Below, piece after piece: positions 1,992 to 9,308 of a DNA stretch of 15,506 nucleotides (position 1 is the stretch's first letter; each line of letters opens with the position of its first letter). The stretch is from a virus. Lineage: Duplodnaviria; Heunggongvirae; Uroviricota; Caudoviricetes. Made by a program: the position numbers and the translations under genes. The notes beneath the pieces are model-generated. The model searched no databases. It worked only from the letters and a program-made list of their open reading frames with translations, and was not told where the DNA came from. The stretch covers positions 1-15,506 of IMG/VR virus record IMGVR_UViG_2703718798_000014; one strand, 5' to 3'.

Positions 1992-2323
1992 ATATGTGTC
2001 AAGTATTGAAAAAATTTGAAATGTCTTCTTCTGAGTTCTTATTCTCTGTTTCTTGATTGTTCCAACACCTGATGGTTTATCTATTTGTTTTTAATGAGGT
2101 AACTCAGGTGTCATGCCAAATGACGACATTTTTTGTTGCGTCGCTTAAAAACTCGTGACACGATTTCATGAACAGCAGCAAACTCTAGAGAACTTTGACG
2201 AACATAAAGTTCAGAAAGGTTACGTATTCAATTTAAGAGGTGAAAAAAGCTAAGAAGTAATCTTTTCCCGTATATCCACAGCGAAACAAAAATTTCTATA
2301 CGTAATTTTATGTAGGGCTTTTT

Positions 2324-2518
2324 ATGCGCGAAATAAATGAAGATCGTGTAATCCGCGAAAAAGAATGCAGAGAGCTAACAGGCGTTTGCCGCACAACTCG
2401 TTACGAGATGGAAAAACAAGGCCGCTTTCCCTCCCGTATCAGTCTTGGCGGTCGTTCGGTTGGCTGGATTAAGTCTGAGGTTGTCGCCTGGGTCAAAAAC
2501 CGCGAACGCGTCAATTAA
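2324..2518 (+). CDS. alpA: AlpA-family (Xis-like, MerR-type winged helix) transcriptional regulator
   Basis: 64 aa; motif ELTGVCRTTRYEMEKQGRFPSRISLGGRSVGWIKSEVVAWV matches the AlpA pattern TG..R.T.Y....G.FP....LG.R.VGW..SE...W. Position immediately after int is typical of P4-like elements and PICIs. Confidence 0.85.
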   Translation: MREINEDRVIREKECRELTGVCRTTRYEMEKQGRFPSRISLGGRSVGWIKSEVVAWVKNRERVN

Positions 2519-2550
2519 GAATATTCATTCTTTAAATTCCGTCCGTGTTT

Positions 2551-2577
2551 TTGTTTGTACTTGTTCGCGGTTGTTCG
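2551..2577 (+). promoter_or_regulatory. Triple-box module TTGTTTGTAC-TTGTTCGCGG-TTGTTCG (10-bp register)
   Basis: Boxes begin at 2551, 2561, 2571. The same module recurs at 577-603, 15426-15452 and, in variant form, 7910-7936; a looser copy at 514-540. Followed by SD TAAGGAG (2608-2614) and ATG 2624. Confidence 0.55.
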
Positions 2578-2676
2578 TGAAGAAAAGAAGCGGCGCGTAT
2601 GCACCGCTAAGGAGTTTATTTTCATGACTTATGCAGCTTTCAATCTTAGCACCGCCGTAGCTGGTGGACAAGGCTA

Positions 2677-2904
2677 TCAGCCAGGCGGTCGGTTTTTGCC
2701 GGATTTAAGCCGCCGTGGGTATTTCTCGACAAAATCTTCAAGGGCAAATTTTTCTGGTGGCACTAAGCGCGGCGCTGGTGGTGGTATTTTTGTTCTGGTT
2801 AGTTCTTCCTCAAGTCTGGCGCAGGCTTCTGACTGCCTTTGCCGGATGATTTCATCATCTTGCGTTTGCGTGTCTTGTATTGGTGATAGTGTGTTGTTGG
2901 TCAT
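2677..2904 (-). CDS. Hypothetical protein (75 aa), second gene of leftward regulatory pair
   Basis: ORF downstream of and co-directional with the RHH gene; charged, helical-looking composition; weak RBS. No recognised domain. Confidence 0.4.
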   Translation of the reverse strand: MTNNTLSPIQDTQTQDDEIIRQRQSEACARLEEELTRTKIPPPAPRLVPPEKFALEDFVEKYPRRLKSGKNRPPG

Positions 2905-2961
2905 GATACTGCCCTGTAAAGCAATGCGCCGGAGTACCTCACACCACGGCGCTGATAGTGA

Positions 2962-3141
2962 TTATTCTGATTCTTTGGCCTTACGGCGCTGGCGGCGTTT
3001 GATCTCGCCTCGCATGGCTGTAACGATAAATTGCGCAGTGCTCTCGCCTGTTTCTTTTACTTGCTCCATAGCCTCAACAACTTCATGCGGGGCGCGAGCC
3101 TGTAATTTCTGTGATTTGTTATTGATATGGTCTCTTTCCAT
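2962..3141 (-). CDS. Ribbon-helix-helix (CopG/Arc/MetJ-like) DNA-binding protein, candidate island repressor
   Basis: 59 aa ORF, below the ORF-track length cutoff, translated by hand: MERDHINNKSQKLQARAPHEVVEAMEQVKETGESTAQFIVTAMRGEIKRRQRRKAKESE. Segment LQARAPHEVVEAMEQVKETGESTAQFIVTAM fits the RHH beta-strand/helix A/G-x-S turn/helix B pattern. AGGGA RBS 8 nt upstream. Start abuts a triple-palindrome operator. Confidence 0.5.
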   Translation of the reverse strand: MERDHINNKSQKLQARAPHEVVEAMEQVKETGESTAQFIVTAMRGEIKRRQRRKAKESE

Positions 3142-3157
3142 TTCTGGTTCCCTTTGT

Positions 3158-3259
3158 GATTACTGGAATCCAGTATACACGAAAAAGACCAAAACAAAAC
3201 GCTTGAAGTGGATTCCACTTAGTGATTATACTGGAATCCAGTTGAGTGTTTATCACTCA
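3158..3259. promoter_or_regulatory. Divergent promoter/operator region: three related palindromes (ACTGGAaTCCAGT x2, AAGTGGAtTCCACTT) plus IR TTGAGTG-N5-CACTCAA; candidate rightward promoter TTGAAG-N18-TATACT
   Basis: Perfect palindromes at 3163-3175, 3206-3220, 3230-3242. O1 and O3 sit in ~22-bp direct repeats (TGATTA(TA)CTGGAATCCAGT). -35 TTGAAG 3203-3208 and -10 TATACT 3227-3232 are overlapped by O2 and O3. A second TATACT on the minus strand (complement of 3173-3178) could serve the RHH gene. Confidence 0.5.
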
Positions 3260-3338
3260 ATGCAAACGAGGCTGAAAAGGATTGCCGTCCTTTCGCAGCC
3301 TCTGACCACCAACGATAGCGAAAGTATCGAGGTAGCTA

Positions 3339-3538
3339 TGAGAAATCATACCACACACCCGCAAGGGCGGGACTCGCACAACCTGAATAAATTCACCTGG
3401 CGCTTTATGCAGTGCCTGACAGACAGCATTGCAATATTCACCGTTACCGCTGCCACTGAACGCGAAGCCCGCGCCCAGTTGCCGCACGCACATCTGATTT
3501 TTGTCGCCCGTATTCGTCAGGGGGTGTGCCATGCCTGA
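3339..3538 (+). CDS. Hypothetical protein (66 aa; alternative start 3260 gives 93 aa), first gene of rightward operon
   Basis: GAGGT RBS 5 nt upstream of ATG 3339; E. coli-preferred codons; stop overlaps next gene start (coupling). Strand assignment is uncertain: an antisense ORF (3257-3532) covers the same DNA. Confidence 0.35.
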
Positions 3539-3851
3539 TATGTCAAATTACCAGTACCTGATTAATCCGCATTTTAAGTGTGATCATGATATTGCTAAGA
3601 AGGTTTATTCCGCTGCTGATGGGGCTACTGACAATATATCAATGGGTATTGCGTCAATTGGTAGCCTTATGTTTCATGCGTCAGAAAATGAGGAATATGA
3701 CGAAAAGGCCATGCGCATTGATATGGGTAATATCGGTTTGTTACTGGCAATGCTTGGACATTTTGATATTTCGTTACGGTGCACCATTGAAAATGCCACA
3801 GATGCATTAAATGCCATAAAGAAAGCGAATACTGATTCAAATCGGGGATAA
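3531..3851 (+). CDS. Hypothetical protein (106 aa)
   Basis: ATG 3531 with AGGGGG RBS 6 nt upstream; overlaps previous stop. No recognised motif. Confidence 0.5.
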   Translation: MPDMSNYQYLINPHFKCDHDIAKKVYSAADGATDNISMGIASIGSLMFHASENEEYDEKAMRIDMGNIGLLLAMLGHFDISLRCTIENATDALNAIKKANTDSNRG

Positions 3852-3857
3852 ATAATC

Positions 3858-4157
3858 ATGAGAACGTATTTATCTGGCTTGACTGCCAGCGGTTATGCAC
3901 ATCCAAAAATTATCCCCGGCGCTATTTATCGGGATAAGAACGGCAACAGAGTAACAGTAAAATCGATAATGTTTGACCGTGTGTATTTTATTCGTGATGG
4001 CTATTCATTTCATAGCTCGCTGAACGTGGAGATCTTTATTTGCAGATTCCGGCGGGAAATTCCGCCTTCCAGAAATAACCATGTGTCATGTATGGATGTT
4101 GATAAAAAACTACAGGAACTGAAAAACATGATTGCCGCGTGGAGAGAGCAGAAATGA
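3858..4157 (+). CDS. Hypothetical protein (99 aa)
   Basis: ATG 3858 with GGGGA RBS; stop overlaps primase start (ATGA). Confidence 0.5.
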   Translation: MRTYLSGLTASGYAHPKIIPGAIYRDKNGNRVTVKSIMFDRVYFIRDGYSFHSSLNVEIFICRFRREIPPSRNNHVSCMDVDKKLQELKNMIAAWREQK

Positions 4158-5971
4158 AAAAAGCGCCAAATTTAAAACACCAGCCACGTGACAAAATGAC
4201 GGAAGTCATCATTTTTGCGGGTAGTGATGCGTGGGCACATGCGAAGCAGTGGCAGGAACAGGACGGGCGACTGGCTGGCGATAACGTGCCACCTGTCTGG
4301 CTTGGAGAGCAACAACTTGCCGAACTGGACAACCTGCAAATCGTACCGGACGGACGCTATCGCGTGCGTCTCTATCAGGCGGGGTTATTGCGTTCGGGGC
4401 TTGTTAATACCATCGGGCAGAAACTGGCAGCGGCAGGTGTCAGGGATGCTGATTATTACCCTGAAGGAATGCACAGCCAGAAACGGGAGAACTGGCGCGA
4501 ATATCTGGAACGTGAGCGGGGAGATCTGACGGAAAAGAAAAAGGTAGTTGAACTGCCTGTAAAGAAAAAAGAGCGGGTAAAAGACGATAACGCTTCATCA
4601 CTGGCGCTTAACCAGATGGGAGCAAGTCAACGCGGCGAAGTTCTCCTGGCACATTATGGCGGTGAACTGGCGATTAATGCTGACTCTGACACTGTTCACC
4701 ATTACAACGGCGTTGTATGGGAGCCAGTACAGGATAAAGAATTACAGCGAGCTATGGCACAGATTTTCATTGATGCGGAGATCAGCTATTCGCAGAACGC
4801 CATTAAATCGGCGGTCGATACCATGAAGTTAAGTTTGCCTGTAATGGGGAATACAGCCCGTAACCTGATTGGATTCAGTAACGGGGTATTTGATACCCGT
4901 ACAGGTGATTTCCGTGAACACGATAAAAATGACTGGCTGTTAATTGCCAGTGAGTTACCGTTCACTCCACCAGCAGAAGGTGAAACGCTGGCAACACATG
5001 CGCCGAATTTCTGGAAGTGGTTACGCCGTTCGGTGGCTGAGAATGACCGCAAGGCAGATCGCGTTCTGGCAGCGTTATTTATGGTGCTGGCGAACCGGTA
5101 CGACTGGCAGTTATTCATTGAGGTAACAGGTCCAGGGGGAAGTGGTAAAAGCGTGATGGCGGAGATTTGCACCATGCTGGCGGGTAAGGCCAACACAGTA
5201 TCGGCAAGCATGAAGGCGCTGGAAGATGCAAGGGAACGCGCGTTAGTGGTTGGCTTTTCGCTGATTATCATGCCGGATATGACCCGCTACGCTGGTGATG
5301 GGGCAGGAATTAAGGCCATTACAGGCGGTGACAAGGTGGCAATTGACCCGAAACACAAAGCCCCCTACTCAACGCGTATTCCGGCAGTAGTGCTGGCGGT
5401 TAACAATAACGCCATGTCATTCAGTGACCGCAGCGGGGGGATCTCGCGCCGTCGGGTGATATTCAATTTTTCGGAAGTTGTACCGGAGAACGAACGCGAT
5501 TCAATGCTGGCGGAAAAAATAGAAGGTGAGCTGGCGGTAGTGATTCGTCATCTGCTTACACGGTTTGCTGACCAGGACGAAGCCAGACGCCTTTTATATG
5601 AGCAGCAGAAATCAGAAGAAGCACTCGCGATAAAGCGTGAAGGTGATTCGCTGGTGGACTTCTGCGGCTATCTCATGGCGTCGGTAATGTGTGATGGCCT
5701 GTTAGTGGGTAATGCTGAAATTGTGCCATTCAGCCCGCGCAGGTATCTCTATCATGCCTATCTGGCTTATATGAAGGCACATGGGTTTGGTAAACCTGTA
5801 ACACTGACGCGCTTCGGTAAAGATATGCCGGGGGCAATGGCGGAATATGGCAGGGAGTATATGAAACGGAAAACGAAGCACGGTTTGCGTTCAAACGTGA
5901 CACTGACGGAGGAATCAGAAGACTGGATGCCGTCATGTGTATCGGTCACTAATGACGATAGCAAAAATTAA
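4154..5971 (+). CDS. DNA primase/helicase, P4-family (SF3 helicase-type NTPase)
   Basis: 605 aa from ATG 4154 (GGAGAG RBS 7 nt upstream; the track start 4139 is an upstream GTG). Walker A GPGGSGKS in ...FIEVTGPGGSGKSVMAEI...; Walker B-like LIIMPD. Followed directly by an iteron array of the P4 ori type. Confidence 0.85.
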   Translation: MKKAPNLKHQPRDKMTEVIIFAGSDAWAHAKQWQEQDGRLAGDNVPPVWLGEQQLAELDNLQIVPDGRYRVRLYQAGLLRSGLVNTIGQKLAAAGVRDADYYPEGMHSQKRENWREYLERERGDLTEKKKVVELPVKKKERVKDDNASSLALNQMGASQRGEVLLAHYGGELAINADSDTVHHYNGVVWEPVQDKELQRAMAQIFIDAEISYSQNAIKSAVDTMKLSLPVMGNTARNLIGFSNGVFDTRTGDFREHDKNDWLLIASELPFTPPAEGETLATHAPNFWKWLRRSVAENDRKADRVLAALFMVLANRYDWQLFIEVTGPGGSGKSVMAEICTMLAGKANTVSASMKALEDARERALVVGFSLIIMPDMTRYAGDGAGIKAITGGDKVAIDPKHKAPYSTRIPAVVLAVNNNAMSFSDRSGGISRRRVIFNFSEVVPENERDSMLAEKIEGELAVVIRHLLTRFADQDEARRLLYEQQKSEEALAIKREGDSLVDFCGYLMASVMCDGLLVGNAEIVPFSPRRYLYHAYLAYMKAHGFGKPVTLTRFGKDMPGAMAEYGREYMKRKTKHGLRSNVTLTEESEDWMPSCVSVTNDDSKN

Positions 5972-6213: not shown

Positions 6214-6258
6214 GGTTAAAACGCAAAAATTTTAATTTACTGCTGTGAGATAAAGCCT

Positions 6259-6504
6259 ATGACAGCGAAGCACACAAAAAAATCACAATCGCACGCCCTT
6301 GATTTGACGGAACACTGGTTAAGGGTGTCGATAAAAATCATCGACCGCAACGCCGGGGAAGGATATGCGAAAGCACATCCCGAACTGATTAGCGCATTCA
6401 TGACAACGGCAGCTGCAAACTTTGCCACGCTGACAGAACGGGAGATTGCCGAAGCGGAACAGGTAACAACCATCAACGTTAAAACCGGAGAGGTGGAATC
6501 ATGA
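6259..6504 (+). CDS. Hypothetical protein (81 aa)
   Basis: First ORF after ori; no clear RBS; stop overlaps next start. Confidence 0.45.
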   Translation: MTAKHTKKSQSHALDLTEHWLRVSIKIIDRNAGEGYAKAHPELISAFMTTAAANFATLTEREIAEAEQVTTINVKTGEVES

Positions 6505-6806
6505 GCGAACCAAAATTTGGTGAAAAATTTTACAAGCACAACGGACGGATCACGATTCTGCAAATAAGCGCAGCTACACCAGGCTGGTGGGTTGAAACAG
6601 ACGAAGGATCCTCACCTGTGGCATCATGGGCGCTTTGTGTGCTTAGTTACCCTGACCGCGATGTGTATCAGGATATTCTGCCTGTGATATCCACTGACAA
6701 AGGCATGAAACCCGTAGACATCAAAAACATGGGTTTTCAGTGTGTAATGCTCACTGAAAAAATGATGGAAGAGATGAAAAAGAACAACGCCGGATCGCTT
6801 CACTGA
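6501..6806 (+). CDS. Hypothetical protein (101 aa)
   Basis: GGAGAGGTGG RBS; ATGA overlap with previous gene. Confidence 0.55.
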   Translation: MSEPKFGEKFYKHNGRITILQISAATPGWWVETDEGSSPVASWALCVLSYPDRDVYQDILPVISTDKGMKPVDIKNMGFQCVMLTEKMMEEMKKNNAGSLH

Positions 6807-6815
6807 GGTGGCAAT

Positions 6816-7226
6816 ATGACAGCACAAATTGCAGCTTACGGGCGGCTGGTGGACGACCCGCAGGTAAAACAGACCAGTAAGGGCACACCGATGACGCTGG
6901 CGCGTATGGCGGTATCGTTGCCATGTAGTCAGGCGCAGGATGGGCAGGCGACGTTATGGCTATCGGTCATCGCATTTGGTAAGCAGGCCGACTTCCTGGC
7001 TAAACATCAAAAAGGCGACGTTGCCAGCGTATCCGGCACGATGCAGGTCAGCCAGTGGACCGGACAGAACGGGGAAACGCGGCAGGGTTATCAGGTTATT
7101 GCAGACAGCGTAATCAGTGCCCGTGCGGCACGTCCTGGCGGGAACAGACGCAAAACCACAGGCACACAGGGTAATCAGCCACCAGCGGGAGGCGATGACC
7201 CTTACGGTGACGGTATTCCGTTCTGA
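6816..7226 (+). CDS. ssb: Single-stranded DNA-binding protein (OB-fold, SSB family) with short C-terminal ...DDPYGDGIPF tail
   Basis: GAGGTGG RBS. N-terminal YGRLVDDPQV...; core WLSVIAFGKQADFLAKHQKGDVASVSGTMQVSQWTGQNGETRQ aligns by eye with E. coli SSB (W..V..FGK.A....KG......G....WT...G); C-terminal GIPF resembles the DIPF tip. Confidence 0.75.
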   Translation: MTAQIAAYGRLVDDPQVKQTSKGTPMTLARMAVSLPCSQAQDGQATLWLSVIAFGKQADFLAKHQKGDVASVSGTMQVSQWTGQNGETRQGYQVIADSVISARAARPGGNRRKTTGTQGNQPPAGGDDPYGDGIPF

Positions 7227-7514: not shown

Positions 7515-7538
7515 AGCCGGAGAAATCCGGCTTTTTTT
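7515..7538 (+). terminator. Rho-independent terminator (stem AGCCGGA / TCCGGCT, GAAA loop, T7 run)
   Basis: Perfect 7-bp stem 7515-7521 / 7526-7532, tetraloop GAAA, then TTTTTTT; directly after the stop of the 7237-7509 gene. Confidence 0.65.
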
Positions 7539-7633
7539 GCACCAGTTGAAACGGTATGGCGCATTACCGGGTTTTCGTCACGGTCAGGCATAGTTACTAT
7601 CTGAAACAAACAGACACAACAGAGGAAAAAACA

Positions 7634-7858
7634 ATGCCGATGAAATTTGATGAGATATTAAAACAGCGTGATAAATACCATGCTGACAACATGGAGACGA
7701 TGAGCATCAATGATTACCGCGCATTCCTGGAGACGGGCGCACTGATTGAAAAGGATCAGCATGGTTTTGTGAGATGTGCTCTGTCCGGTGAAATGCTGGC
7801 GGTAAATCCTGAACAGATAGATGCATTGATAGAATTTCTGAAAGGGATCAGGGACTGA
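7634..7858 (+). CDS. Hypothetical protein (74 aa)
   Basis: ATG 7634 with AGAGGA RBS 7 nt upstream (the track start 7556 is an upstream extension). Flanked by two near-identical terminators. Confidence 0.5.
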   Translation: MPMKFDEILKQRDKYHADNMETMSINDYRAFLETGALIEKDQHGFVRCALSGEMLAVNPEQIDALIEFLKGIRD

Positions 7859-7868
7859 GCACGCATAC

Positions 7869-7890
7869 AGCCGGAGCAATCCGGCTTTTT
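7869..7890 (+). terminator. Rho-independent terminator (same stem AGCCGGA / TCCGGCT, GCAA loop, T5 run)
   Basis: Stem 7869-7875 / 7880-7886 identical to the 7515 terminator; T-run follows. Confidence 0.6.
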
Positions 7891-7909
7891 GTCATTTTTT
7901 GTAAATTAT

Positions 7910-7936
7910 TTGTTCGTGGTTGTTCCACGTTGTTCA
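7910..7936 (+). promoter_or_regulatory. Triple-box module TTGTTCGTGG-TTGTTCCACG-TTGTTCA upstream of the head/packaging operon
   Basis: Boxes at 7910, 7920, 7930 in exact 10-bp register; 215 bp upstream of the capsid ATG; third box (TTGTTCAC) also resembles the ori iteron. Confidence 0.5.
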
Positions 7937-8001
7937 CTGACAGGATCGGCATATTTTACCCGAACTGAATCATGAGTATTCTCGCCCGTGGTGCCAGGAC
8001 G

Positions 8002-8049
8002 CTGGGGCCACTTTCCCGCCTGTTAATGTGCTCGCCAATATTCATTACC
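8002..8049. promoter_or_regulatory. Long inverted repeat (11-bp perfect arms TTTCCCGCCTG / CAGGCGGGAAA, 26-bp spacer) in the capsid-operon leader
   Basis: Arms 8002-8012 and 8039-8049 are exact reverse complements. Confidence 0.35.
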
Positions 8050-8112
8050 AGGCGGGAAAACGATCGGTGCGATTGCTGATTTCCTTATGAAAAACGGTTG
8101 AGTTTTTGCCGC

Positions 8113-8150
8113 GTCCTGGAGTTCCTTACTTAACCCCAGGACTTTTTTTT
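8113..8150 (+). terminator. Intrinsic-terminator-like hairpin plus T8 run ending at the capsid start codon (candidate attenuator or antitermination target)
   Basis: Stem TCCTGGAGTT (8114-8123) pairs with AACCCCAGGA (8132-8141) with one mismatch; T8 at 8143-8150; ATG at 8151. No Shine-Dalgarno can fit between hairpin and ATG. Confidence 0.5.
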
Positions 8151-9308
8151 ATGCCGAGAATAATCGAATTACGCCAGCAGAAAACCGCCATTAAAAATCA
8201 GATGCGCGACATGCTGGAGAACGCGGAAAAAGAAAACCGCAGCCTTAACGATGCAGAGGGCGCAAAATTTGACGAATTACGCGCTAAAGCTGAATCCCTC
8301 GATAAAGACATTTCCCGCCTTGAAGCCATTGCAGACGAAGAGCGCAGCAAGCCAGGTAAAAGCAGCCAGACCACTGACCCGGCAGAACTCCGCAACTACA
8401 TCCTGACAGGTGAAACCCGCGCATTAAGTACAGGCGTTCCCGCTGATGGTGGTTATACCGTTATCCCCGAACTGAACACCGAAATCATGCGAATGCTGAC
8501 GGATGAATCCACCATGCGCCGCATCTGTACCGTGAAGAAAATCAGCAGCAACGAGTTTAAGCAGCTTGTTTCCGCTGGCGGTGCGACCGTTAACCACGGT
8601 GAAGAGGGTAAGACACGCGAACAGACCAGCACCCCGCAGATTAACGAGGTGAGCATTAAGCTGTATCCGGTCTATGCGTACCCGCGCACCACACAGGAAA
8701 TCGTGGATTTTTCCGATGTGGACATCCTTTCATGGCTGACGGGTGAGATTGGCGACACCTTCACGGAAACCGAAGAAAGCGATCTGGTTGTGGGCGACGG
8801 TGACAAAAAAGCAAAAGGTTTTTTATCCGTACCCCGTGCAGAGAAGAACGACAAAGAGCGTGATTTTGGTACGTTGCAGGTAATTAAACCTTCCGAATCT
8901 CTGGCGTGGACATCTGCGGACCCGCTGATCGACCTGAAATTTGCATTACGTAAAAAATACCGCAAAAACGCGGTCTGGGTGGTTAACTCCACGACGGCGG
9001 CAAAACTTCAGAAGGTGAAGAACGCGAACGGTGATTACATCTGGCGCGACCGTTTACAGGCTGGTGATCCTGATACGTTGCTGGGCCTTCCGGTCGAATA
9101 TCTGGAGTTTATGCCTGATAACGTTATTGCCCTGGGTGACTTCAAACGCGGTTACTACATTGTTGATCACGAAACAGGTGTTCGCACCAGACCGGACAAC
9201 CTCACAGAGCCGGGCTTCATCAAAATTTTCACGCAGAAATATTTAGGCGGTGGCGTGGTGGATTCGAACGCGATCAAGATTCTGGAACTGCCACAGGACG
9301 ACGATTAA
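8151..9308 (+). CDS. Major capsid protein, HK97 fold, with N-terminal delta (scaffold-like) domain
   Basis: 385 aa from ATG 8151 (the track start 8106 is an upstream TTG). N-terminal coiled-coil-like IELRQQKTAIKNQMRDMLENAEKENRSLNDAEGAKFDELRAKAESLDKDISRLEA; C-terminal half resembles HK97 gp5 by eye (...GDYIWRD...LLGLPVEY...GDFKRGYYIVDHETG...). Confidence 0.9.
   Translation: MPRIIELRQQKTAIKNQMRDMLENAEKENRSLNDAEGAKFDELRAKAESLDKDISRLEAIADEERSKPGKSSQTTDPAELRNYILTGETRALSTGVPADGGYTVIPELNTEIMRMLTDESTMRRICTVKKISSNEFKQLVSAGGATVNHGEEGKTREQTSTPQINEVSIKLYPVYAYPRTTQEIVDFSDVDILSWLTGEIGDTFTETEESDLVVGDGDKKAKGFLSVPRAEKNDKERDFGTLQVIKPSESLAWTSADPLIDLKFALRKKYRKNAVWVVNSTTAAKLQKVKNANGDYIWRDRLQAGDPDTLLGLPVEYLEFMPDNVIALGDFKRGYYIVDHETGVRTRPDNLTEPGFIKIFTQKYLGGGVVDSNAIKILELPQDDD

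What the first reader, a model, noticed from the sequence alone, without database searches (positions are those of the whole stretch)
2962..3141. Unlisted 59-aa ribbon-helix-helix gene hidden under a long antisense shadow ORF
The ORF track reports only a 327-aa plus-strand ORF here, whose product is Cys/Ser-rich and reads through the operator palindromes. On the minus strand a 59-aa ORF just under the length cutoff has a clean RHH signature and a good RBS, followed by a 75-aa partner (2677-2904). This pair is easily missed by automated calling.
Basis: seen in the sequence. Interest (0 to 1): 0.5.

Follow-up and report, generated by a model that had tools for sequence, protein, structure and literature searches.

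The report
Satellite repressor gene nested in antisense ORF
The 59-codon gene is real and already annotated: it is most likely the operator-binding repressor of a phage satellite, and the long ORF on the opposite strand is not a meaningless shadow, because selection keeps it free of stop codons in nearly every relative examined.

Summary
The 59-aa minus-strand ORF (2962-3141) is a real gene. RefSeq already calls it "YlcI/YnfO family protein", and the identical protein occurs on at least 1000 contigs. Its model matches solved ribbon-helix-helix (RHH) repressors such as AmrZ, omega and Arc. The window is a capsid-forming PICI satellite. The same module sits in the model island EcCICFT073, for which no repressor has been described.

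Upstream lie three palindromic boxes over a conserved sigma-70-like promoter that faces the icd-like/primase operon. Across 29 diverged loci the boxes match within a locus, differ between loci, and covary with the RHH beta-strand. This is the signature of a repressor and its operators.

The plus-strand "shadow" ORF is kept open. Its frame has no stop inside the RHH gene in 64 of 65 distinct relatives. Synonymous codons that would create an antisense TGA are avoided: 1 of 143 against about 37 expected. Its ends are usually coupled to the neighbouring genes, yet its amino-acid sequence is not conserved. Its last third is the Icd-like gene.

I read it as a translated bridge that lets alpA-side transcription cross the repressor gene, as eta does in P4. 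The 75-aa "partner" is confined to E. coli-type elements.

The parts
2962..3141 (-). 59-aa YlcI/YnfO-family gene with a ribbon-helix-helix fold; the proposed operator-specific repressor of the satellite
3149..3154 (-). SD-like AAGGGA, 7 nt upstream of the ATG of the RHH gene
   Evidence: Sequence. GGAG or GAGG sits at the same distance in nearly all 29 representative loci.
3161..3175 (.). Operator box 3 (TACTGGAATCCAGTA), proximal, in the 5' leader or start region of the RHH gene
   Evidence: Same position in all 29 representative loci, with locus-specific sequence.
3206..3220 (.). Operator box 2 (AAGTGGATTCCACTT); overlaps the -35 element and the spacer of the icd-side promoter
3230..3242 (.). 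Operator box 1 (ACTGGAATCCAGT); overlaps the -10 edge and the predicted start site of the icd-side promoter
3203..3232 (+). Sigma-70-like promoter facing icd/primase: TTGAAG, 18-nt spacer, TATACT
   Evidence: Consensus scan. The motif TTGA.. followed by TATA(C/G)T recurs around the boxes in the 29 loci. No transcript mapping was available.
3225..3252 (-). Candidate promoter for the RHH gene (TAAACA, 16-nt spacer, TATAAT). A second candidate -10 (TATACT on the minus strand) lies at 3172-3177, next to box 3.
   Evidence: 10 of 12 consensus matches. Conserved TATA after box 1 and GTATACT before box 3. Which of the two is used is not known.
2624..3538 (+). Long 'bridge' ORF of 304 codons from the ATG. 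The frame is open from 2519, directly after the alpA stop codon. It runs antisense through the 75-aa and RHH genes, through the operators and the leader, and ends as the Icd-like gene.
   Evidence: No stop inside the RHH gene in 64 of 65 distinct relatives. Antisense-stop-creating codons avoided, 1/143 against 326/992, with the control and the site table. Coupled start and stop. Sequence not conserved as protein.
2609..2614 (+). AAGGAG Shine-Dalgarno sequence, 9 nt upstream of ATG 2624 of the bridge ORF
   Evidence: Sequence. The same arrangement is seen in L082.
2589..2608 (-). Terminator-like hairpin followed by a T-run, for the minus-strand genes
   Evidence: An equivalent A-run plus hairpin is conserved downstream of the RHH gene in other genera; it reads as 'QKEKDSTANATLW' in the bridge frame.
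2677..2904 (-). 75-aa hypothetical gene downstream of the RHH gene; a lineage-specific accessory of unknown function
   Evidence: PGAP WP_077881502.1. No Pfam, NCBIfam or PHROG family. Found in only 10 of 93 fetched loci. 20 clusters, all E. coli, with the conserved C-terminus FALEDFVEKYPRRLKSGKNRPPG. CFT073 has a 57-aa variant carrying FALEQFLKEY.
3338..3538 (+). Icd-like gene (PGAP start). It is the 3' end of the long ORF and is coupled to the next gene.
   Evidence: NF033153 E 2.5e-13 on residues 280-322 of the 327-aa ORF. phrog_6196 E 3.6e-38 on residues 236-326.
3268..3332 (+). Conserved structured leader of icd: hairpin 1 at 3268-3302, single-stranded TCTGACCACCAA at 3301-3312, hairpin 2 at 3314-3328, SD GAGG at 3329-3332
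   Evidence: Alignment A3 of 29 loci. 14 pairs, 89.9% of cells paired against 32-38% when the partner is slid. 10 pairs carry compensatory changes; none of 500 shuffles reached the observed value. No Rfam family matched.
2324..2518 (+). alpA (activator of Gram-negative PICIs). Its stop codon is the only stop separating it, in the same frame, from the bridge ORF.
   Evidence: PF05930 E 7.5e-16. Frame relation. AlpA's role is taken from PMC6092414.

Best explanation
The window is a capsid-forming PICI phage satellite. Between alpA and the icd-like/primase operon it carries a small immunity-type module.

(1) The 59-aa minus-strand gene encodes a YlcI/YnfO-family ribbon-helix-helix protein. As a dimer it should insert its beta-ribbon (residues ~11-17, with R16 invariant) into three palindromic boxes. 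Boxes 1 and 2 cover the -35 element, the spacer, the -10 element and the start site of the sigma-70-like promoter that drives icd-like, DUF4222 and primase. Box 3 lies in the gene's own leader. The protein would therefore repress the replication operon and regulate itself, keeping the island quiescent.

(2) The same 180 nt are also read on the plus strand, as part of a long ORF. That ORF starts at or near the end of the upstream gene (alpA or a Bro-N gene). It ends at or within the icd-like gene, overlapping the next start codon. Its amino-acid sequence is free to drift, but its frame is kept open. The most likely reason is that transcripts started upstream, at the helper-induced AlpA-dependent promoter, must be translated continuously. 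Otherwise Rho would terminate them while they run antisense across the repressor gene, its terminator and the operators.

Read-through would then express the replication operon despite the repressor, and convergent transcription would shut repressor synthesis off. This is the logic of eta in satellite P4, with a protein repressor nested antisense in place of the CI RNA.

Shown here: the gene, its fold, the operator architecture and covariation, and the stop-codon avoidance and coupling. Inferred: DNA binding, repression, translation of the bridge, and the role of Rho.

My confidence by component: the gene is real with an RHH fold, about 0.95; it binds the boxes as a repressor, about 0.75; the antisense frame is kept open by selection, about 0.9; the reason is protection from Rho polarity, about 0.5.
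For: Gene and fold:
- hhalign places KSQKLQARAPHEVVEAMEQVKETG in register with the beta-strand, proline and helix A of Arc.
- Pairwise differences at codon positions 1/2/3 are 0.268/0.210/0.555. Replacements average BLOSUM62 +0.10 in this frame and -0.95 in the antisense frame.

Operators:
- Three sites against 0.2 expected, and none elsewhere in the 15.5-kb window.
- The three boxes sit at about -101, -79 and -34 in 29 loci from many genera.
- Box type follows the beta-strand: QK[LVI]Q[AT]RA with TGGA-N-TCCA; QKMSARV with TGGCACCCA; QQLNARF with GTGAATCGCAC; KKLEARV with GTGTCAGCCAC; QALKARV with GTGTGGCCCAC; TQ[IL]ASRV with GGTGCT(A/T)A(C/G)CACC.
- Mean box match is 9.9 of 11 within a locus, 9.5 between loci with the same beta-strand, and 7.4 between loci with different beta-strands.
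- Box type does not follow Icd. L012 and L040 have near-identical Icd N-termini but different boxes and beta-strands.

Bridge ORF:
- No stop inside the RHH gene in 64 of 65 distinct coding sequences; the other two antisense frames have 1-7 stops.
- In 29 representatives below 85% nt identity, T-ending codons before CAN occur 1/143 times against 326/992 elsewhere. The expectation is 37 (Fisher 1e-21).
- 54 control genes from the same loci show no such bias (34.6% against 33.1%). Their antisense stop density gives P(open) about 0.13 per 60 codons.
- Site by site: Asp4 is GAC 7/7 before CAN and GAT 4/4 otherwise. Arg50 uses five synonyms but never CGT. CCT occurs only where the next codon is not CAN, or where it creates the single observed stop.
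- The bridge frame has no stop in the 36-codon operator stretch in 28 of 28 loci; the other two frames have 73 and 89.
- In about 18 of 29 loci the first ATG or GTG has a GGAGG-type SD and overlaps or abuts the upstream gene's stop. In most loci the stop overlaps the next start, for example ATGA onto icd in L040.

Context and precedent:
- The window has cf-PICI gene content.
- EcCICFT073 carries the same module, with a 428-aa bridge ORF.
[quoted passage not shown] - Ribosomes shield nascent RNA from Rho, and Rho suppresses antisense transcription (PMC12360218).
Against: - There is no experimental evidence here for DNA binding, for repression, for any transcript start, or for translation of either strand.
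- No curated Pfam RHH model reaches threshold. The best is PF07704 at E 0.024. Foldseek against the PDB found nothing, and HMM search of PDB sequences found nothing meaningful.
- The model is a monomer, so the beta-strand appears only as an extended arm.
- The related sequences are not independent, so the P values overstate significance. One codon (Ser10, TCA) is almost invariant for no known reason.
- One locus (L079) has a stop in the bridge frame yet keeps intact boxes.
- In 7 of 29 loci the bridge ORF stops before icd, and in some loci its start is 50-170 nt from the upstream gene.
- If AlpA were a processive antiterminator, as in Pseudomonas, translation might not be needed. The window's AlpA did not match that protein in the PDB by sequence.
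- What 'ORF3' is in the 2018 paper could not be established.
Confidence: 0.58

Rival explanations
1. One reading: the RHH gene is real and the plus-strand ORF is a meaningless shadow that is open only by chance or because of composition.
For: The plus-strand product has an odd composition: 16% Ser, 5% Cys, and only 39% purine at codon position 1. Its replacements are radical. Its N-terminal parts are unrelated between loci. In this antisense frame only His, Gln and Tyr codons of the RHH gene can give stops, so an open frame has about 10-13% prior probability.
Against: The frame is open in 64 of 65 distinct sequences and 28 of 29 diverged representatives. T-ending codons are missing specifically before CAN, although other synonyms vary freely. 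Control genes show no such bias. The frame also stays open through non-coding operator and terminator DNA. SD sequences and overlapping start/stop junctions link it to the neighbouring genes.
Confidence: 0.07
2. This is true dual coding with two functional proteins. The long plus-strand ORF would encode a functional long Icd-type protein whose N-terminal extension matters as protein.
For: 22 of 29 loci keep the ORF in frame with the Icd-like domain through to its stop. phrog_6196 extends about 26 residues upstream of the PGAP start. In CFT073 the N-terminus keeps a Bro-N/Ant fragment.
Against: The extension varies from 13 to 461 codons and is unrelated between loci. The only shared stretches are DNA or RNA elements: terminator, operators and leader hairpins. 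No family matches outside the Icd part. In 7 of 29 loci the ORF ends before icd and is merely coupled to it.
Confidence: 0.12
3. The RHH protein binds the boxes but is not the maintenance repressor of the replication operon. It could instead be an activator, a purely autoregulatory protein, or an architectural factor for excision or replication, like TraY or omega.
Against: Boxes 1 and 2 lie on the -35, spacer, -10 and start site of the conserved icd-side promoter, which is a repressing geometry. The gene is divergent from that operon, as in classical immunity regions. The many specificity classes resemble immunity types.
Confidence: 0.15
4. The RHH gene and the 75-aa gene form a two-gene unit, such as a type II toxin-antitoxin pair or a repressor with a co-factor.
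Against: The 75-aa gene is absent from most loci and from every genus other than Escherichia. It matches no toxin family or any other family. The operators overlap the icd promoter, not just a promoter for the pair.
Confidence: 0.05
5. Only the plus-strand ORF is real, and 'YlcI/YnfO' in this location is a conserved antisense artefact.
For: Third codon positions coincide in the two frames, so conservation and openness are partly mirrored between them.
Against: A conserved SD and start codon precede the RHH gene. Replacements are conservative in the RHH frame only. The fold is confidently RHH. The beta-strand covaries with the operators. The family also occurs in another context: K-12 ylcI lies next to cos and nohD and appears in a list of excludons detected in RNA-seq data.
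Confidence: 0.02

Closest known systems
Arc/Mnt/CopG/omega/AmrZ ribbon-helix-helix repressors
   Same: Small size. Beta-strand, helix, G-x-S turn, helix topology. An invariant Arg in the strand, aligned with Arc R13. Best structural matches. Several short palindromic operators overlapping a promoter. Divergent, probably autoregulated arrangement.
   Different: No curated RHH Pfam model reaches threshold. It has a long, invariant, basic C-terminal helix (GEIKRRQRR). It belongs to the uncharacterised YlcI/YnfO family (NF041551). The gene is nested antisense in a maintained ORF.
E. coli K-12 YlcI (DLP12) and YnfO (Qin); NCBIfam NF041551, phrog_949
   Same: Family membership by HMM: 72.3 bits against a cut-off of 30. 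Same RHH-like pattern. No function has been reported.
   Different: K-12 ylcI lies next to cos and nohD in a lambdoid prophage, not between alpA and a primase operon. The open antisense frame there is only 90 codons and is not linked to neighbouring genes.
Satellite P4 immunity region: vis/alpA, eta/kil, CI RNA, primase (alpha)
   Same: Same position, between the alpA homologue and the primase operon (the 'Bro zone'). [quoted passage not shown] In P4, translation of that ORF prevents premature termination, so upstream-promoter transcripts read through (PMC10111431, citing Forti 1999).
   Different: The immunity determinant here is a protein (RHH) encoded on the opposite strand, with DNA operators. 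It is not a sense-strand CI/C4 RNA with seqA/seqC targets, and no C4 or isrK Rfam hit was found. The bridge ORF here has mostly lost any Bro-N domain.
Stl/Rpr master repressors of Gram-positive PICIs (SaPIs)
   Same: A repressor divergent from the excision/replication operon that would keep the island quiescent. This is the role proposed here for Gram-negative PICIs, where no repressor has been identified.
   Different: Unrelated fold and size. Stl is lifted by binding of a helper-phage protein. Here the bypass is proposed to be AlpA-driven read-through.
Noncontiguous operons and excludons
   Same: An operon co-transcribed across a gene on the opposite strand, so that expression is mutually exclusive. 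The concept as used in PMC12288877.
   Different: Here the sense transcript also carries a maintained reading frame across the antisense gene, making the segment dual-coding. I found no description of that feature in the papers I read.

Membership tests
YlcI/YnfO family (NCBIfam NF041551) | HMM score above the curated cut-off | tested here: met
   72.3 bits against a cut-off of 30, E 2.4e-20, residues 9-50. RefSeq gives the identical protein this name.
Ribbon-helix-helix (Arc/MetJ/CopG) superfamily | N-terminal strand followed by two helices joined by a G-x-S/T/N turn | tested here: met
   AF2 model: extended residues 1-18, helix 19-28, turn G32-E-S34, helix 35-58, pLDDT 86. The strand cannot pair in a monomer model.
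Ribbon-helix-helix (Arc/MetJ/CopG) superfamily | Structural similarity to solved RHH proteins | tested here: met
Ribbon-helix-helix (Arc/MetJ/CopG) superfamily | Match to a curated RHH sequence family (Pfam clan Met_repress) | tested here: not met
   Only PF07704 at E 0.024 and 16 bits, against a cut-off of 28.3. hhalign to Arc is in register but has only 19% probability; to CopG, 0.9%.
Ribbon-helix-helix (Arc/MetJ/CopG) superfamily | Dimer that binds repeated or palindromic operators through the beta-ribbon | tested here: inconclusive
   Three palindromes covary with beta-strand residues across 29 loci. Binding and dimerisation cannot be tested with these tools.
Type II toxin-antitoxin (RHH antitoxin plus toxin) | A conserved adjacent toxin gene | tested here: not met
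   The 75-aa neighbour occurs only in E. coli-type loci and matches no family.
P4/P1-type RNA immunity (CI/C4, isrK) | Rfam C4 (RF01695) or isrK match upstream of icd or primase | tested here: not met
   No hit at gathering score in the window or in 17 related loci, and none at E<=10 in 2200-4200.
P4 eta-type translated leader ORF | ORF between the alpA homologue and the primase operon, translationally coupled to the upstream gene, spanning the immunity determinant | tested here: met
   Coupled or SD-led starts. Stops coupled to the next gene. The ORF spans the RHH gene and the operators. A Bro-N remnant is present in CFT073.
P4 eta-type translated leader ORF | Translation of the ORF prevents premature transcription termination | not testable with these tools
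   Inferred from the stop-codon avoidance and from general Rho polarity.
Capsid-forming PICI (cf-PICI) | int, alpA and primase, plus own capsid, protease, portal, TerS and TerL, with no tail genes, in about 15 kb | tested here: met
   Pfam assignments. Comparison with the 15.4-kb EcCIEDL933 description. In the nearest RefSeq relative the element is integrated beside cspD.
Icd-like protein (NCBIfam NF033153) | HMM score above the cut-off (applies to the C-terminus of the plus-strand ORF) | tested here: met
   49.9 bits against a cut-off of 25 on residues 280-322 of the 327-aa ORF. PGAP annotates the relative's gene that maps to window 3338-3538.

The most novel reading that the evidence does not exclude
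Gram-negative PICI and cf-PICI satellites do have a master repressor. It is a YlcI/YnfO-family RHH protein that comes in at least nine operator-specificity (immunity) types. Its 180-nt gene is dual-coding, because it is nested antisense inside a translated, sequence-free 'bridge' ORF. That ORF lets helper-induced, AlpA-driven transcription run through the repressor gene into the replication operon and silence it. The result is a compact convergent-transcription switch maintained by selection on synonymous sites.
Probability: 0.5. Interest if true: 0.8.

Novelty: new variant of a known kind. Interest (0 to 1): 0.64.

Why it matters
The 2018 description of Gram-negative PICIs left open whether these islands have a repressor at all (PMC6092414). 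This module is present in both model islands: EcCICFT073, and the EDL933-type cf-PICI. It offers a concrete candidate, with predicted operators and specificity classes that can be tested by simple reporter and swap experiments.

The plus-strand ORF is also one of the clearest comparative signals of selection on an antisense reading frame. The signal is site-specific avoidance of exactly those synonymous codons that would create a stop on the other strand, in a frame whose protein sequence is otherwise free. That makes a long-debated question directly testable, namely whether long antisense ORFs are ever functional, and in this case why. A single silent mutation would do it.

The result also gives a first functional lead for the uncharacterised YlcI/YnfO family.

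Tried and rejected
- tblastn of the 59-aa protein against 50,697 deposited phage genomes found nothing. The family lives in satellites and prophages rather than in sequenced phages.
- Rfam found no C4, isrK or other family in the window or its relatives, so RNA immunity of the P4/P1 kind was rejected. The one SNORA13 hit (E 1.5) is chance.
- A literature search for YlcI, YnfO or DUF3950 found no functional study. A search for RHH together with PICI found nothing relevant. The EcCIMP1 paper's 'repressor' is an unrelated PerC-like protein.
- I considered generic codon-pair bias against NNT-CAN as the cause of the open frame. It was rejected by the control on 54 genes from the same loci.
- I considered that conserved peptide motifs in the bridge frame show protein coding. 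They coincide with DNA or RNA elements instead. 'QKEKDSTANATLW' is the terminator, 'WNPVYTKK..KW.P' the operators, and 'ASNHNV'/'LTGLLTT' the leader hairpins.
- I considered the Icd-like protein (labelled 'transcriptional repressor' in PHROGs) as the box-binding protein. Box type does not follow Icd (L012 against L040).
- The window's AlpA did not match the Pseudomonas antiterminator AlpA in the PDB. It matched only a generic AlpA-family chain, 8c3t.
- My first attempt to split the long ORFs at the RHH boundary was off by one base. Only the 5' parts of that output were used.
Full report
**1. What is in the window**

All ORFs are at the stated coordinates:
- a 59-aa ORF on the minus strand, 3141..2962;
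- a 75-aa ORF on the minus strand, 2904..2677;
- a 327-aa plus-strand ORF, 2555..3538, with its first ATG at 2624.

The window as a whole has the gene content of a capsid-forming PICI satellite. In order it carries a tyrosine integrase, AlpA, this module, an Icd-like gene, DUF4222, a D5-type primase, SSB, an HK97-type capsid, a prohead protease, a portal, TerS and TerL. This matches the published description of the 15.4-kb EcCIEDL933. In the closest RefSeq relative (96% identity) the element lies beside cspD. PGAP there annotates the 59-aa ORF as "YlcI/YnfO family protein" and the 75-aa ORF as hypothetical. It annotates no plus-strand gene over them, but it does annotate an Icd-like gene at the position corresponding to 3338-3538, which is the 3' end of the long ORF.

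**2. The 59-aa gene is real and has an RHH fold**

- It scores 72 bits against NCBIfam NF041551 (cut-off 30) and matches phrog_949 end to end. Pfam gives only a sub-threshold hit to PF07704.
- The identical protein is on at least 1000 contigs. 108 clusters, down to 58% identity, occur across Escherichia, Klebsiella, Serratia, Yersinia, Xenorhabdus, Pantoea, Pectobacterium, Proteus and Morganella.
- An AlphaFold model built on 39 homologues has pLDDT 86: an extended arm, helix 19-28, a G-E-S turn, and helix 35-58.
- hhalign puts the segment K9-G32 in register with the strand, proline and helix A of Arc, although with low probability.
- An SD sequence 7-10 nt upstream of the start codon is conserved in nearly all loci.
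- Across 29 representatives below 85% nt identity, codon positions 1/2/3 differ by 0.268/0.210/0.555. Amino-acid replacements average BLOSUM62 +0.10 in this frame and -0.95 in the overlapping antisense frame. Protein-level selection therefore acts on this frame.

**3. The palindromes behave as its operators**

- TGGAWTCCA occurs three times, at 3164, 3209 and 3232, and nowhere else in the window. Chance predicts 0.2 sites.
- Aligning the 125 nt upstream of the gene in 29 loci shows a fixed architecture, with three boxes at about -101, -79 and -34 from the ATG.
- Between boxes 1 and 2, read towards icd, lies a conserved TTGA(C/A)G, then 17-18 nt, then TATA(C/G)T. In the window this is the promoter-like site 3203-3232. 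Boxes 1 and 2 therefore cover its -35 edge, spacer, -10 edge and start site. Box 3 lies beside a conserved GTATACT, just upstream of the RHH gene's SD.
- Box sequence is nearly identical within a locus (9.9 of 11 positions). It is similar between loci whose proteins share beta-strand residues 11-17 (9.5 of 11) and different otherwise (7.4 of 11).
- At least nine classes are visible. For example, QK[LVI]Q[AT]RA goes with TGGA-N-TCCA, QKMSARV with TGGCACCCA, QQLNARF with GTGAATCGCAC, KKLEARV with GTGTCAGCCAC, and TQ[IL]ASRV with GGTGCTAACCACC.
- Arg16, which aligns with Arc R13, is invariant, as are the outer TG/CA of the boxes.
- Box type does not follow the neighbouring Icd-like protein. L012 and L040 have near-identical Icd N-termini but different boxes.
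- L082 has window-like flanks but a QQLNARF-type protein and boxes, so the gene and its operators move as a unit.

This is the pattern expected of a repressor and its operators, with immunity-like specificity types. Binding itself remains inferred.

**4. The plus-strand ORF is not a shadow**

The frame relation. The frame of the 327-aa ORF is the antisense frame whose third codon positions coincide with those of the RHH gene. In that frame a stop can arise only where an RHH codon ending in T precedes a CAN codon, or where one ending in T or C precedes a TAY codon.

The open frame.
- Among 65 distinct coding sequences (the window, 12 species genomes, and IMG/VR contigs), 64 have no stop in this frame. 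The other two antisense frames carry 1-7 stops.
- The open stretch is 123-653 codons long.

Avoidance of stop-creating codons.
- In the 29 representatives, codons that have a T-ending synonym end in T in 1 of 143 cases before CAN, against 326 of 992 elsewhere. The amino-acid-matched expectation is 37.
- The single exception creates the single observed stop, in L079.
- Site by site: Asp4 is GAC in 7 of 7 cases before CAY and GAT in 4 of 4 otherwise. Arg50 uses CGC, CGG, CGA, AGA and AGG but never CGT. Ala/Gly36 never use GCT or GGT, although GGT is the commonest Gly codon elsewhere. In L012, the only locus where Ser10 and Pro18 are not followed by CAN, they are TCT and CCT.
- 54 long genes from the same loci show no NNT-CAN avoidance (34.6% against 33.1%). 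Their antisense stop density predicts an open 60-codon frame only about 13% of the time.

Openness outside the RHH gene.
- In the 36-codon operator stretch the bridge frame has no stop in 28 of 28 loci. The other frames have 73 and 89.
- 5' of the gene it stays open for a mean of about 112 codons, where the other frames have a stop every 16 codons or so.

Junctions with neighbouring genes.
- In about 18 of 29 loci the first ATG or GTG has a GGAGG-type SD and overlaps or abuts the stop of the upstream gene, usually a Bro-N-type gene of 170-441 aa.
- In the window, AAGGAG lies 9 nt before ATG 2624. The frame opens directly after the alpA stop codon.
- At the 3' end, 22 of 29 loci run in frame into the Icd-like domain, and the stop overlaps the next start codon. 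In the remaining loci the ORF stops earlier, for example with an ATGA overlap onto icd in L040.

No conservation as protein.
- N-terminal parts are unrelated between loci.
- The shared "motifs" coincide with the RHH gene's terminator, the operators and the icd leader hairpins.
- The composition is abnormal.
- No family matches outside the Icd part.

The frame, not the protein, is what selection keeps.

**5. Mechanism proposed**

Established knowledge:
- Ribosomes shield nascent RNA from Rho, and Rho suppresses antisense transcription inside genes (PMC12360218).
- In Gram-negative PICIs, helper phage induces alpA. AlpA activates its own promoter and a fusion to the downstream "ORF3". Its overexpression alone triggers replication. 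No repressor is known (PMC6092414).
[quoted passage not shown] 1999).

Inference:
- In the quiescent island the RHH protein occupies the three boxes, shuts the icd/primase promoter and limits its own synthesis.
- On induction, transcripts from the alpA side are translated without interruption: upstream gene, bridge ORF, icd, next gene. They therefore escape Rho while crossing about 0.8 kb antisense to the repressor gene(s).
- These transcripts express the replication operon regardless of the repressor.
- They also oppose repressor transcription by convergent collision.

The model island EcCICFT073 has the same layout: alpA, a 57-aa ORF and the YlcI/YnfO gene on the opposite strand, an Icd-like gene, and a 428-aa bridge ORF whose N-terminus keeps a Bro-N/Ant fragment.

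**6. The 75-aa "partner"**

It is called by PGAP but has no family. It occurs in 10 of 93 fetched loci, and only in Escherichia. Its relatives share a conserved C-terminus (FALEDFVEKYPRRLKSGKNRPPG) and a variable N-terminus with in-frame indels, so it is probably a real lineage-specific accessory protein. It is not a conserved second component, and a toxin-antitoxin reading is not supported.

**7. Limits**

- Everything about binding, promoters, transcripts and translation is inferred from sequence comparison.
- The loci are related, so the nominal P values are too small, although synonymous sites are clearly saturated.
- One locus, L079, breaks the frame.
- Ser10 is almost always TCA, for unknown reasons.
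- No curated RHH sequence model reaches threshold.

**8. Verdict**

The RHH reading is supported. The claims "unlisted", "shadow" and "partner" are not.

- The gene itself is a known, annotated but uncharacterised family.
- The operator covariation makes it a concrete candidate for the missing repressor of Gram-negative PICIs.
- The maintained antisense frame is a new variant of the P4 eta principle, and an unusually clean case of selection on an antisense ORF.

Noticed in passing
window 3268-3332 (+); alignment A3 of 29 loci: The leader between the icd-side promoter and the icd-like start codon holds a conserved two-hairpin RNA element, joined by a near-invariant single-stranded UCU(A/G)ACCA(C)AA. 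In most loci the SD lies in or just after hairpin 2. Of 14 pairs, 89.9% of cells are paired against 32-38% in slid controls, 10 pairs carry compensatory changes, and none of 500 shuffles reached the observed value. No Rfam family matches. It occupies the position that the c4 RNA has relative to icd in P1, but membership in C4 was tested and not met.
   Followed up: partly
L002 7860-7929, L006 7519-7587, L012 8113-8181, L013 8057-8125, L029 5354-5423, L033 5491-5561: The Rfam 'int-alpA RNA' motif (RF02996) is present in six related loci. It did not reach gathering score anywhere in the window.
   Followed up: no
L096 (NC_004431.1, E. coli CFT073) 7526-9053: The model PICI EcCICFT073 carries the same module. 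The YlcI/YnfO gene has a late-numbered locus tag (C_RS30120). The plus-strand ORF there is 428 aa, with a weak Bro-N/anti-repressor fragment at residues ~49-91.
   Followed up: partly
L020 (IMG/VR) long ORF, locus 2603-4562: One contig has a 653-codon open frame. It crosses what looks like two tandem modules: a second, degenerate antisense-RHH-like stretch with operator-like repeats and an icd remnant. The frame stays open through both.
   Followed up: no
L082 compared with window 2519-3250: L082 shares the window's 75-aa gene and the start of the bridge ORF (MTYAAF...), but it has a QQLNARF-type RHH protein with GTGAATCGCAC boxes. This indicates exchange of the repressor-plus-operator unit between otherwise similar islands.
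   Followed up: partly
window 2516-2518 and 2324-3538 (+): alpA and the long ORF are in the same reading frame, separated only by the alpA TAA stop codon. In other loci the two are in different frames or are separated by a Bro-N gene, so this is probably incidental.
   Followed up: partly
RHH gene codon 10 (window 3112-3114, minus strand) across loci: Ser10 is TCA in 24 of 29 representatives, although TCC, TCG and AGC would also keep the antisense frame open. The proteins also lack Tyr and almost entirely lack Cys and Trp. No explanation was found.
   Followed up: no
L094 (E. coli K-12) 6252-6834: K-12 ylcI, the family's namesake, lies on the opposite strand immediately beside the DLP12 cos region and nohD. 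Its product shows the same strand-helix-turn-helix pattern. ybcW-ylcI appears in a published list of convergent excludons detected in RNA-seq samples (PMC12288877).
   Followed up: partly
L079 (IMG/VR, 58-kb contig) around 2983-3171: This is the only relative with a stop in the bridge frame (CCT before CAT at Pro17/18). It still has three intact GGTGCTTAGCACC boxes. It sits on a much larger contig than the satellites.
   Followed up: no
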